Source: Escherichia coli (GTDB lineage: Bacteria; Pseudomonadota; Gammaproteobacteria; Enterobacterales; Enterobacteriaceae). From it: a DNA stretch of 5,682 bases. The stretch lies in assembly GCF_003334785.1 (NCBI RefSeq), contig NZ_QOWV01000042.1; one strand, written 5' to 3'. Below the pieces are notes generated by a model. The model did not search any database, was not told where the DNA came from, and was given only the letters and a program-made list of their open reading frames with translations. Both the position numbers and the translations under genes were made by a program. Shown piece by piece: positions 5,101-5,682 of the stretch (its first letter is position 1; each line of letters begins with the position of its first letter).

Positions 5101-5682
5101 TCATTTAATTTTTAAATTACGAAGCTCATTATCCAGATAGCGATTCAGCTCGAGGAGCTCGTGGTCATCGCCGAAACTGACGGTTTTCAGGCTCTTGATC
5201 TCATCGTCCAGATAGCGGTTCAGCTCGAGGAGTTCGTGGTCATCGCCGAAACTGACGGTTTTCAGACTCATGATCTCATCGTCCAGATAGCGGTTCAGTT
5301 CCCGGAGTTCGTGGTCATTGCCGAAACTGACGGTTTTCAGGCTCTTGATCTCATCGTCCAGATAGCGGTTCAGTTTCCGGAGCTCGTGGTCATCGCCGAA
5401 ACTGACGGTTTTCAGACTCATGATCTCATCGTCCAGATAGCGGTTCAGCTCGAGGAGCTCGTGGTCATCGCCGAAACTGACGGTTTTCAGGCTCATGATC
5501 TCATCGTCCAGATAGCGGTTCAGTTTCCGGAGCTCGAGGTCATCGCCGAAATTGACGGTTTTCAGACTCATGATCTCATCGTCCAGATAGCGGTTCAGAT
5601 AGAGGAGATCATAGTCATCGCAGACGCTAACAGTATTAACAATATTTATCAACTAGTAATCGTACATCATCAGCTCAATTAA
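5101..5682 (-). CDS. Acidic tandem-repeat protein, copy B: C-terminus and repeat array (5' region beyond window end), in-frame TAG at 5655-5653
   Basis: Minus-strand ORF 5101..5652 consists of six near-identical 25-aa units LNRYLDDEIMSLKTVSFGDDHELLE plus a degenerate C-terminal unit. Each unit has seven acidic and about three basic or His residues. The sequence upstream (5682-5653, minus sense) is homologous to the N-terminal region of copy A (complement of about 118-147) but carries TAG where copy A has AAG. The track's start codon is TTG at 5652-5650. Confidence 0.55.
5116..5640. repeat. 75-bp direct tandem repeat array (six full units plus degenerate flanking units)
   Basis: Period of 75 bp, with units starting at 5161, 5236, 5311, 5386, 5461 and 5536. 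Unit example: gtggtcatcgccgaaactgacggttttcaggctcttgatctcatcgtccagatagcggttcagctcgaggagttc. Units differ at only a few positions. Confidence 0.9.

What the first reader, a model, noticed from the sequence alone, without database searches (positions are those of the whole stretch)
5101..5682. Near-identical 75-bp in-frame tandem repeats encoding a highly acidic 25-aa unit: possible nucleic-acid mimic and repeat-number variation locus
Six full units differ at only a few nucleotides, which indicates recent expansion or ongoing homogenisation. Each unit (LNRYLDDEIMSLKTVSFGDDHELLE) has seven Asp or Glu against about three Lys, Arg or His, so the protein is strongly net-negative and periodic, like known DNA-mimic anti-restriction and immunity proteins. 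A perfect in-frame period of 75 bp also makes the array prone to expansion and contraction, which would change protein length without frameshift. The few variable positions change residues (M/K, L/R, E/K, S/N, D/N, H/L).
Basis: partly seen in the sequence, partly recalled or inferred. Interest (0 to 1): 0.7.

Follow-up and report, generated by a model that had tools for sequence, protein, structure and literature searches.

The report
Repeat-protein gene paired with PIN nuclease
The 75-bp repeats are real and encode the body of an acidic repeat protein whose gene always sits directly behind a PIN-type nuclease gene on small enterobacterial plasmids, an undescribed two-gene module whose function (probably control of the nuclease) is still only inferred.

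Summary
A 75-bp tandem array (6.6 copies, 5125-5621, 91% matches, no indels) encodes 25-aa acidic units on the minus strand.

The window shows only part of the gene. Positions 1-5598 are 100% identical to the complete E. coli ECOR 10 plasmid RCS83_pIII. There the array belongs to one 346-aa gene: a 31-aa N-terminus, one degenerate unit, 11 full units and a 15-aa end. That gene starts 13 nt after a PIN_8 nuclease gene. The window lacks 291 bp of array and ends in an unexplained 84-nt diverged tail.

The gene pair is conserved. Six PIN_8 lineages (56-100% identity), on ColE1-type and Rep3-type plasmids, each have a downstream acidic repeat protein. Units are lineage-specific (25, 25, 26 and 29 aa), which indicates concerted evolution of a coding repeat.

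More distant PIN_8 proteins carry unrelated near-identical repeats (14-32 aa) fused to their own C-termini. They often lie beside defence genes.

No Pfam, NCBIfam or PADLOC family matches the partner, and its fold is unresolved (LRR-like solenoid or helix-loop string).

My best reading is a binding or regulatory subunit of the nuclease in a toxin-antitoxin-like or defence cargo module. The DNA-mimic idea is untested. Copy number is mostly stable (six arrays of 346 aa, one of 371 aa).

The parts
5125..5621 (-). 75-bp tandem array as delimited by Tandem Repeats Finder (6.6 copies)
   Evidence: period 75, 91% matches, no indels, score 791; six copies in register.
5101..5598 (-). 3' part of the repeat-protein gene: six full 25-aa units, the terminal 15-aa unit LNRYLDNELRNLKIK, and the stop codon (5101-5103)
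   Evidence: translation; 100% identical to ECOR 10 plasmid L001, where it is the end of one 346-aa ORF.
5599..5682 (-). Anomalous tail. It is a diverged copy of the N-terminal degenerate unit and reads LIELMMYDY*LINIVNTVSVCDDYDLLY, with an in-frame TAG at 5653-5655. It is absent from all relatives.
   Evidence: all six mismatches to L001 within the 1-5621 alignment start at 5599; 76% ungapped identity to the window's own N-terminal unit and 67% to the P0016 lineage; no match elsewhere.
1..229 (-). 5' part of the same repeat-protein gene: ATG at 229-227, 31-aa N-terminus, degenerate unit 0 (KLKYEYKMLQNVKSFSVSEDYEHLE), and the first 20 aa of unit 1. It runs off the window start.
   Evidence: It is identical to the start of the 346-aa gene in L001, L005, L010, L011 and L012; L006 differs by G3D.
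236..240 (-). Shine-Dalgarno AGGAG, 6 nt before the ATG of the repeat-protein gene, inside the 13-nt gap after the PIN_8 stop codon (243-245)
   Evidence: Read directly from the sequence. The same AAGGAG/AGGAG-spacer-ATG arrangement occurs in L015, L018 and L021.
243..1406 (-). PIN_8 (PIN-like, VapC-group) nuclease gene. The 387-aa form starts at MSMRDMFKGFY; NCBI annotates a 409-aa form starting at 1472.
   Evidence: Pfam PF18476, E 1.4e-41, residues 50-281; invariant D54, E92, D270 and D274 across nine homologues; the identical protein occurs on 77 contigs.

Best explanation
The array is the repetitive body of a protein-coding gene that forms a two-gene operon with the upstream PIN_8 nuclease gene. 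The intact product is 346 aa: a short N-terminus, one degenerate unit, 11 near-identical 25-aa acidic units and a 15-aa end.

I infer that this protein is a dedicated binding or regulatory subunit of the nuclease. Most likely it holds the nuclease inactive, as an antitoxin or immunity protein would, and may also serve as the element that senses a trigger. On this reading the pair is a toxin-antitoxin-like or abortive-infection-like cargo module of small mobilizable plasmids.

Shown here: coding status, the operon arrangement, conservation of the pair, concerted evolution of the units, and recurrence of tandem peptide repeats in the PIN_8 family.

Inferred only: physical binding, inhibition, and any role in phage defence or plasmid maintenance.
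For: Coding status:
- Only the gene's frame is free of stops in L001, L009 and L018. The other five frames carry 5-111 stops.
- The DNA periods measured are 75, 75 and 78 nt, and a fourth lineage has a 29-aa unit. The fused arrays have periods of 51, 60 and 96 nt. All are multiples of three.
- AGGAG lies 6 nt before the ATG, and the ATG is 13 nt after the PIN stop codon.
- The array RNA is less structured than its shuffles, z = +1.84. Rfam finds only RNAI in the window.

Conserved pair:
- The identical PIN protein occurs on 77 contigs from E. coli, Klebsiella, Citrobacter, Salmonella and Enterobacter.
- A 346-aa partner with the same unit order is found in six independent assemblies.
- PIN lineages at 87, 74, 69, 64 and 56% identity, some on Rep3-type plasmids, each have an immediately downstream gene. 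These genes share the N-terminal motif M-x-x-x-(S)-F-(L/V/M)-x-(K/N/R)-K. Wherever enough of the gene is preserved, they also carry acidic repeats built on the core (E/K/N)L(S/N)(R/L)xLxD(D/E).

Fusion evidence:
- Distant PIN_8 proteins carry near-identical tandem repeats on their own C-termini: L030 17 aa x 7.5, L032 32 aa x 5.4, L031 20 aa x 2.9, P0033, P0040 and P0051.

Context:
- Distant PIN_8 genes lie beside a PD-T4-5/AbiD-like gene, CBASS-type genes, an Abi family gene and a type I R-M gene.

Evolution:
- Between L001 and L006 the PIN gene has 4 synonymous and 0 nonsynonymous changes. The partner has 1 synonymous and 5 nonsynonymous.
- The nuclease catalytic residues are invariant.
Against: - There is no direct evidence of binding or inhibition.
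- The partner is large (346 aa), lies downstream, and has no DNA-binding domain. From my own knowledge, this is unlike typical VapB-type antitoxins.
- PADLOC has no model for either protein, so a defence role rests on neighbourhood only.
- PIN_8 homologues at 26-40% identity exist alone, without a partner or repeats. The nuclease therefore does not universally need such a partner.
- My one prospective test failed. The idea was that a basic PIN_8 C-terminus predicts a separate acidic partner. The P0050 family has a basic C-terminus but a terminator straight after the gene.
- Homology between partner lineages is weak by BLASTP (E 0.003 and 0.7). It rests mainly on synteny, shared motifs and one phmmer hit, P0069 (E 6.9e-9).
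- The nonsynonymous excess rests on only ten substitutions.
Confidence: 0.5

Rival explanations
1. Sensor or targeting subunit rather than inhibitor. The repeat protein is a leucine-rich-repeat-like solenoid that recognises a foreign (for example phage) protein and then activates or recruits the PIN_8 nuclease, as the LRR domains of innate immune receptors do.
For: - The single-sequence AlphaFold model has one beta-strand at TVSF every 25 residues, with pTM 0.52. All 50 top Foldseek PDB hits to it are LRR proteins.
- 39 of the 45 non-family phmmer hits examined carry BspA-type 25-aa LRR units. Pfam confirms two of them as LRR_5.
- The window unit matches the BspA-type consensus in a single register, z = 5.6, with 0 of 5,000 shuffles reaching it.
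- The nonsynonymous bias in the partner and the defence-gene neighbourhoods of PIN_8 fit a sensor role.
Against: - Pfam LRR models match none of the five partner sequences scanned, which cover three lineages.
- AlphaFold with a 9-sequence alignment gives isolated 19-residue helices instead, pTM 0.15.
- The PDB sequence search hits only designed helical repeat proteins.
- The orthologous L018 unit shows no LRR-like register, z = 1.4.
- The repeats fused to other PIN_8 proteins have units of 14-20 aa, which I judge too short for LRRs.
- Residues that vary between units fall mostly in the predicted helix, not on the strand face that binds ligand in LRRs.
- E-values for repeat-against-repeat matches are inflated.
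Confidence: 0.2
2. One reading: a stand-alone nucleic-acid mimic. The acidic periodic protein imitates DNA or RNA and blocks host restriction or other nucleases during plasmid entry, independently of PIN_8.
For: - The protein is acidic (pI 4.7, net -32) and strictly periodic.
- It is carried on mobilizable plasmids.
- Many partner-less PIN_8 proteins have acidic C-terminal regions or tails, 35 of 39. Acidic appendages therefore recur around this nuclease.
Against: - No match to ArdA, Ocr, pentapeptide or any other family.
- 15% K+R, and only about -1 net in several units.
- The gene is never seen apart from PIN_8 and is translationally coupled to it in every lineage. That ties its role to the nuclease rather than to restriction systems.
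- The repeats fused to other PIN_8 proteins are not all acidic.
- The structure models are too poor to show a DNA-like charge pattern.
Confidence: 0.1
3. The array works as nucleic acid, not protein: for example a type III toxin-antitoxin-like repeat RNA that inhibits the adjacent endonuclease, or a DNA binding-site array (iterons or partition sites).
For: - It is a tandem array next to a putative endoribonuclease gene on a plasmid, which superficially resembles ToxIN (my own knowledge).
- The opposite strand is also open across the part of the array seen in the window.
Against: - One frame stays open over more than 1 kb in every lineage, while the other five frames carry stops.
- All periods are multiples of three.
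- There is a ribosome-binding site, an ATG and a conserved non-repeat N-terminus.
- The RNA is no more structured than shuffles, z = +1.84, and there is no Rfam match.
- The replicon is ColE1-type (RNAI at 1543-1645), which from my own knowledge uses no iterons. Genuine 22-bp iterons in L031 are separate from its coding repeats.
Confidence: 0.03
4. The gene has no specific function. It is a fast-evolving, recombination-prone repeat ORF that hitch-hikes with PIN_8, or, in this particular window, a broken pseudogene.
For: - If the window is taken as a circle, the gene is split into a 79-aa N-terminal ORF and a 183-aa TTG-start ORF after an in-frame TAG.
- Nonsynonymous changes outnumber synonymous ones.
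- The array has 52-53% GC against 30-38% for its own N-terminus and for PIN_8, which suggests sequence driven by recombination.
Against: - The ORF is intact, with the same architecture, in six PIN lineages separated by up to 44% protein divergence.
- Unit order is identical in isolates of different genera.
- Tandem repeats appear independently in cis in other PIN_8 proteins.
- The window's break coincides with contig ends, and 291 bp are missing relative to a 100%-identical complete plasmid. That points to an assembly problem.
Confidence: 0.1

Closest known systems
Type II toxin-antitoxin modules with PIN-domain (VapC-group) toxins; also systems with the toxin gene first, such as RnlAB/LsoAB on small plasmids (my own knowledge)
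   Same: - A PIN-superfamily nuclease with conserved catalytic acidic residues.
- A tightly coupled second gene in the same operon (13-nt gap).
- Plasmid-borne.
- The partner evolves faster than the nuclease.
   Different: - The partner is downstream and 346 aa long.
- It is built of 11 near-identical 25-aa units.
- It has no RHH, HTH or AbrB DNA-binding domain and no Pfam family.
- Toxicity and neutralisation are untested.
Fused versus split toxin-antitoxin immune proteins in which a C-terminal domain both autoinhibits the toxin and senses phage, for example CapRel(SJ46) (my own knowledge; not tested here)
   Same: The same accessory element is found either fused to the C-terminus of the enzyme (L030, L031, L032, P0033, P0040, P0051) or as a separate downstream gene (the window family).
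   Different: - The accessory element here is a homogenised tandem-repeat array with unrelated unit sequences in different lineages, not a folded domain family.
- No trigger is known.
BspA-type leucine-rich repeats (Pfam LRR_5), and the ribonuclease inhibitor as a functional analogue (an acidic LRR horseshoe that caps a nuclease; my own knowledge)
   Same: - 25-residue period.
- The register L-x-x-V-x-F-G-acidic-acidic-x-x-L...L...L...I matches LTSVTFGENSQLTSIGDYAFYGCSS.
- The single-sequence model is LRR-like by Foldseek.
- Acidic pI.
   Different: - Not recognised by the Pfam LRR models.
- The similarity is absent from the orthologous L018 units.
- The second model is helical.
- No signal peptide or surface-protein architecture.
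DNA-mimic anti-restriction proteins (ArdA, Ocr, pentapeptide-repeat Qnr/MfpA)
   Same: Net negative charge, periodic sequence, carried on mobile DNA.
   Different: - No sequence family match.
- A much higher basic-residue content than I recall for classical mimics.
- Obligate genetic coupling to a nuclease gene.
Type III toxin-antitoxin systems (ToxIN and similar; my own knowledge)
   Same: A tandem array adjacent to a putative endoribonuclease gene on plasmids.
   Different: - The array is downstream and translated.
- Its period is a multiple of three in every lineage.
- The RNA is not structured.

Membership tests
Pfam PIN_8 (PF18476), for the neighbouring gene | Match to the family HMM above threshold | tested here: met
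   E 1.4e-41, residues 50-281 against model positions 1-218 of 227.
Pfam PIN_8 (PF18476), for the neighbouring gene | Conserved acidic residues of the PIN active site | tested here: met
   D54, E92, D270 and D274 are invariant in nine homologues down to 38% identity. The motifs FDTN, LEYQ and TNDxKD are also present in L030 and L031.
Leucine-rich repeat, BspA type (Pfam LRR_5) | Match to the Pfam LRR_5 HMM or any other LRR HMM | tested here: not met
   no LRR family at E <= 10 for the 346-aa protein, and none at E <= 0.1 for any of the five partner sequences scanned. Positive controls P0120 and P0112 match LRR_5 at E 7.6e-27 and 2.4e-20.
Leucine-rich repeat, BspA type (Pfam LRR_5) | Repeat of 20-30 residues with the conserved hydrophobic register LxxLxL...L | tested here: inconclusive
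   the window unit scores z = 5.6 in one unique register against 245 BspA-type units. The orthologous L018 unit scores z = 1.4 with no preferred register. The BspA units were selected as hits to the window protein, so the comparison is biased.
Leucine-rich repeat, BspA type (Pfam LRR_5) | Alpha/beta solenoid fold | tested here: inconclusive
   Model 1 (pLDDT 51, pTM 0.52) resembles LRR proteins, best Foldseek E 7.8e-4. Model 2, made with an alignment (pLDDT 53, pTM 0.15), is a string of helices.
DNA-mimic anti-restriction proteins (ArdA, Ocr, pentapeptide repeat) | Sequence membership in a known mimic family | tested here: not met
   no Pfam or NCBIfam match. The apparent NCBIfam and PHROG hits have no individually significant stretch, so they are artefacts of summing over repeats.
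DNA-mimic anti-restriction proteins (ArdA, Ocr, pentapeptide repeat) | Very high net negative charge with few basic residues | tested here: inconclusive
   net -32 over 346 aa, 24% D+E but 15% K+R. Unit net charge ranges from about -5 to -1.
DNA-mimic anti-restriction proteins (ArdA, Ocr, pentapeptide repeat) | Rigid surface with carboxylates spaced like DNA phosphates; inhibition of restriction enzymes | not testable with these tools
The activity needs an experiment.
Type II toxin-antitoxin (VapBC-like) | Adjacent, co-transcribed toxin and antitoxin genes | tested here: met
   Same strand, a 12-13-nt gap and a ribosome-binding site in the gap, in every lineage examined.
Type II toxin-antitoxin (VapBC-like) | Small antitoxin with an N-terminal DNA-binding domain (RHH, HTH, AbrB or PHD) | tested here: not met
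   The partner is 335-371 aa and repetitive, and no domain was detected.
Type II toxin-antitoxin (VapBC-like) | The toxin is growth-inhibitory and is neutralised by direct binding of the antitoxin | not testable with these tools
   Needs expression and pull-down experiments.
Type III toxin-antitoxin (ToxIN-like) | Non-coding tandem-repeat RNA with a defined fold that is processed by the toxin | tested here: not met
   There is a conserved open frame and start signals. RNA folding gives z = +1.84. No Rfam family matches.
Catalogued anti-phage defence systems (PADLOC-DB v2.0.0) | Match of either protein to a system model | tested here: not met
   no families for PIN_8. The partner gives only weak matches with E >= 0.002; for the 346-aa protein none contains an individually significant stretch.
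Variable-number tandem-repeat (contingency) locus | Copy number differs among closely related isolates | tested here: inconclusive
   six complete arrays of 346 aa with identical unit order, and one of 371 aa (L009, one unit duplicated). Short-read assemblies break or collapse in the array (L002-L004, L007, L008, L013, L014, P0053 and the window itself), so true heterogeneity cannot be read from them.

The most novel reading that the evidence does not exclude
PIN_8 nucleases form a family of plasmid- and phage-associated immune or conflict effectors that are controlled by homogenised tandem-peptide arrays. The arrays are encoded either in cis, at the C-terminus, or in trans, as in this window. 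They evolve by concerted evolution into lineage-specific units (14-32 aa) and act as a multivalent, quickly re-tunable sensor or autoinhibitor. This would be a kind of regulatory module not yet described for bacterial nuclease toxins.
Probability: 0.25. Interest if true: 0.75.

Novelty: new variant of a known kind. Interest (0 to 1): 0.55.

Why it matters
Small multicopy plasmids are usually described by their replication, mobilisation, bacteriocin or resistance genes. This cargo pair is annotated only as "PIN-like domain-containing protein" plus "hypothetical protein". I found no paper describing it in the library searches.

If the repeat protein does control the nuclease, it would add a new type of partner to toxin-antitoxin or abortive-infection biology. 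The partner would be long, acidic and internally homogenised, and interchangeable with repeats fused to the enzyme itself.

The pair also offers a tractable system: a 5.9-kb plasmid from the ECOR collection. It could be used to ask why immune nucleases recruit fast-evolving repeats.

There is a practical point too. The array breaks short-read assemblies, so the gene is systematically truncated or split in public data, including in this window.

Tried and rejected
- Word-indexed homology search with the 346-aa protein: 136 candidates, none significant. An exact look-up of its sequences found them absent from the collection.
- NCBIfam and PHROG hits for the repeat protein (for example phage head-tail joining protein, E 1e-12). 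I rejected these because almost none contains an individually significant stretch; the scores are summed over repeats.
- PDB sequence search: only designed helical repeat proteins, each stretch at E about 0.02. This is compositional and not informative.
- AlphaFold twice. Both models have low confidence and they contradict each other. I therefore treat the fold search on model 1 only as a description of that model.
- Promoter and terminator scan around the operon: no more sites than in shuffles.
- Source of the 84-nt tail. It is not in PLSDB, not in complete E. coli genomes, not in any fetched locus, not in the 87%-identity lineage, and has no exact match in JGI metagenome contigs.
- Charge-complementarity prediction (a basic PIN_8 C-terminus implies a separate acidic partner). 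It failed in the P0050 family.
- Viral contigs: only two distant PIN_8 loci, neither with a repeat partner.
- A TALE-like nucleic-acid-reading array. I considered and rejected this because every lineage of the partner is net acidic.
- Literature searches for DUF4935, PF18476, PIN_8 and related terms: only the 2017 PIN classification, which lists PIN_8 as function unknown.
- I did not run the costly genome-contig scan, because six lineages already established that the pair is conserved.
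Full report
**1. What is in the window**

The window is a small ColE1-type mobilizable plasmid.
- Rfam finds RNAI at 1543-1645 on the minus strand.
- The closest complete records annotate rop, mobC, a truncated relaxase, mbeB and mbeD.

The minus-strand ORF 5652->5101 translates into the quoted 25-aa units, and the listed variable residues are correct.

**2. The window shows only part of the gene**

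A further unit lies at window 1-70. It is the end of an ORF that starts at ATG 229-227 on the minus strand. AGGAG sits 6 nt upstream of that ATG, and the ATG is 13 nt after the stop codon of a 387/409-aa PIN-like gene.

Window 1-5598 is 100% identical to the circular 5,912-bp plasmid RCS83_pIII of E. coli ECOR 10 (L001), read from position 4371 around to 4056. In that plasmid the two pieces are one uninterrupted gene of 346 aa:
- a 31-aa N-terminus;
- a degenerate unit;
- 11 full units;
- a 15-aa terminal unit.

The window lacks 291 bp of array. It ends instead in 84 nt (5599-5682) that look like a diverged copy of the N-terminal unit and contain an in-frame TAG. I could not find this tail in PLSDB, in 5,426 complete E. 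coli genomes, in any related locus, or in JGI metagenome contigs. Other public records also break inside the array (L002-L004, L007, L008, L013, L014). The simplest reading is that the window is a contig that collapsed or broke in the repeat. The tail itself remains unexplained.

**3. The array is coding**

- Only the gene's frame is free of stops in the window lineage and in the diverged L018 lineage. The other five frames contain 5-111 stops.
- The periods measured at DNA level are 75, 75 and 78 nt for three partner lineages, and 51, 60 and 96 nt for fused arrays. All are multiples of three. A fourth partner lineage has a 29-aa unit.
- The array RNA folds less well than its shuffles, z = +1.84.

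These results dispose of the DNA-only and RNA-only readings.

**4. The pair is a conserved module**

The identical PIN protein occurs on 77 contigs from E. coli, Klebsiella, Citrobacter, Salmonella and Enterobacter. Six independent assemblies have the 346-aa partner with the same order of unit variants. One has 371 aa, through duplication of a single unit.

PIN homologues at 87, 74, 69, 64 and 56% identity, some on Rep3-type plasmids, all have a gene starting 12-13 nt downstream. That gene begins with a related N-terminal motif: MNDxSFLxKK, MSDNSFVKNK or MDGRFMIKK. Where enough sequence is present, it continues into acidic tandem repeats:

| Lineage | Period | Unit |
|---|---|---|
| L018 | 25 aa | HGFDDIHKLSLSLIDESFNNERLNI |
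| L016 | 26 aa | DDSFSTAHLKSAAIDDELQELSRRLF |
| L021 / P0069 | 29 aa | LTELSRSLDDEIRSLQLSLQHSFIDDDLQ |

Units are near-identical within a lineage and very different between lineages, while a core (E/K/N)L(S/N)(R/L)xLxD(D/E) persists. This is concerted evolution of a coding repeat.

Direct sequence support for homology between lineages is modest. BLASTP gives E 0.003 and 0.7, and phmmer gives E 6.9e-9 for P0069. The claim therefore leans on synteny and motifs.

The module is rare:
- 1 of 5,426 complete E. coli genomes;
- 3 of the 46 plasmid records with a PIN_8 match, out of 72,556 records, carry this subclade at protein level;
- 4 plasmid records match at DNA level, two of them being halves of one plasmid.

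PIN_8 homologues at 26-40% identity on chromosomes, phages and large plasmids lack such a partner.

**5. A wider pattern in the PIN_8 family**

Several distant PIN_8 proteins carry near-identical tandem repeats fused to their own C-termini, just after the nuclease core:

| Protein | Source | Repeat |
|---|---|---|
| L030 | K. pneumoniae pC51_006 | 17 aa x 7.5 (51 bp) |
| L032 | Rahnella pHW114B | 32 aa x 5.4 (96 bp), related (R/H)EEAMR motif |
| L031 | Psychrobacter pA48P2 | 20 aa x 2.9 (60 bp) |
| P0033 | metagenome | 17 aa x 5 |
| P0040 | metagenome | 18 aa x 2.5 |
| P0051 | metagenome | 14 aa x 5 |

That makes five or six independent cases among about 40 proteins examined. The same kind of element thus appears either in cis or in trans. 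This is the classic argument that the two gene products of the window act together physically.

Distant PIN_8 genes also sit beside known defence genes:
- a PD-T4-5/AbiD-like protein (PADLOC E 3.7e-16);
- CBASS-type S-4TM effector and nucleotidyltransferase genes;
- an Abi family protein;
- a type I R-M specificity subunit.

**6. What the partner looks like**

No Pfam, NCBIfam or PADLOC family matches it. The fold is unresolved.

For an LRR-like solenoid:
- The single-sequence AlphaFold model places a short strand at TVSF every 25 residues (pLDDT 51, pTM 0.52). Its 50 best Foldseek matches in the PDB are all LRR proteins.
- An exhaustive phmmer search returned mostly BspA-type LRR proteins. 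Two of them were confirmed as Pfam LRR_5.
- The window unit aligns with their consensus in a single register, z = 5.6.

Against it:
- The Pfam LRR models do not match.
- The alignment-based AlphaFold model gives 19-residue helices joined by 6-residue loops, with no global confidence (pTM 0.15).
- The PDB sequence search finds only designed helical repeats.
- The orthologous L018 unit shows no LRR register.
- The 14-20-aa units fused to other PIN_8 proteins look too short to be LRRs.

I therefore give the LRR reading roughly one chance in three.

**7. Mechanism**

Shown: a translationally coupled, conserved nuclease-plus-repeat-protein operon on small plasmids. The nuclease active-site residues are invariant. 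The partner accumulates amino-acid changes while the nuclease does not: between L001 and L006, PIN has 4 synonymous and 0 nonsynonymous changes, and the partner has 1 and 5 (small numbers).

Inferred: the partner binds the nuclease and controls it. Most probably it acts as an inhibitor or antitoxin, and it may double as the trigger-sensing element, as in fused or split toxin-antitoxin immune systems.

I tested one corollary. In the partner-bearing clade the PIN_8 C-terminal region is neutral to basic (net 0 to +7), whereas it is acidic in 35 of 39 other PIN_8 proteins. This suggested that the acidic partner replaces an acidic tail. The only other family with a basic tail (P0047/P0049/P0050) has no partner. 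The correlation is therefore suggestive at best, and the seven lineages form a single clade.

**8.

- The link to the PIN-like gene is strongly supported.
- Recent or ongoing homogenisation is supported in the sense of concerted evolution. However, the identical order of unit variants in isolates of different genera shows that the array is currently stable.
- Copy-number variation is documented once (+1 unit).
- The nucleic-acid-mimic proposal has no positive evidence. The charge is moderate (pI 4.7, 15% basic residues) and no mimic family matches. It remains possible only as a mechanism of nuclease masking.

**9. Novelty**

PIN_8 is listed as "function unknown" in the 2017 classification of the PIN superfamily (PMC5499597). 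My literature searches found no description of this gene pair or of PIN_8-associated repeats.

I rate it a new variant of a known kind: a nuclease toxin with a cognate partner, carried on a mobile element. Interest is moderate. The general association between PIN_8 and homogenised repeats is the most original element, and its function is entirely open.

Noticed in passing
window 5599-5682: An 84-nt tail follows 5,598 nt that are 100% identical to the ECOR 10 plasmid. The divergence is by substitution only: 76% ungapped identity to the window's own N-terminal unit region over the first 100 nt, which include 16 nt of regular unit. There is an in-frame TAG. It was found in no other sequence searched. 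It could be an assembly chimera with an unsampled paralogue or a real rearrangement.
   Followed up: partly
L001 3600-4400 against 4400-5850 (equivalent to window 5101-5598 against 1-1500): There is a sharp GC break inside one gene. The repeats are 52-53% GC, while the gene's own N-terminal part and the PIN_8 gene are 29-38% GC. By eye, the L018 unit is AT-rich and the L016 unit GC-rich. This could reflect GC-biased gene conversion in the homogenising array, or a foreign origin of the unit.
   Followed up: no
window 5058-5086: A cer-like XerC/XerD recombination site, GGTGCGTACAA-TGGGATG-TTATGGTAAAT, lies 15 nt beyond the stop codon of the repeat gene. I recognised it from memory of the ColE1 cer core and did not test it.
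   Followed up: no
window 3425-3483: A perfect 26-bp tandem duplication (2.3 copies, 100% match) lies inside the relaxase (mbeA-like) gene. The ORF 3048-3545 ends after 165 aa. The ECOR 10 plasmid annotates the same 165-aa relaxase fragment, so this plasmid lineage may be defective for mobilisation.
   Followed up: partly
L030 2998-4722, L032 3392-4837, L031 1610-2857; proteins P0033, P0040, P0051: Distant PIN_8 nucleases carry near-identical tandem peptide repeats (14-32 aa, unrelated unit sequences) fused to their C-termini, often followed by an acidic tail. The K. pneumoniae and Rahnella versions share an (R/H)EEAMR motif but have different periods (51 and 96 bp).
   Followed up: partly
L030 1933-2985; L032 1961-2986; L026 2705-2992: In the K. 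pneumoniae and Rahnella small plasmids the long PIN_8 gene is preceded by a 220-aa PD-T4-5/AbiD-like protein with an RNRIAHHEP (HEPN-type) motif. Next comes a ~91-aa protein that ends just before the PIN start (12 nt in L030; a 28-nt annotated overlap in L032) and looks Cas2-like by eye. L026 has a similar ~95-aa upstream gene. This may be a different three-gene PIN_8 system.
   Followed up: partly
L038 1721-4576: Another PIN_8 gene sits directly after a Peptidase_M78 + DUF4411 (PIN-like) pair and next to a serine recombinase. This looks like a three-component toxin-antitoxin-like cassette with two PIN-superfamily genes.
   Followed up: no
window 5161-5682 (+): A 173-aa ORF is open on the opposite strand across the array. 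It is closed by stops over the full gene in L001 (5 stops) and in L018 (17 stops), so it is a mirror artefact of the repeat rather than a gene.
   Followed up: yes
protein P0053 (96 aa); loci L008, L015, L016: Public assemblies contain collapsed versions of the gene: the N-terminus, one unit and the C-terminus, or runs of N/X inside the array. Copy numbers taken from short-read or metagenome assemblies of this locus are therefore unreliable.
   Followed up: partly
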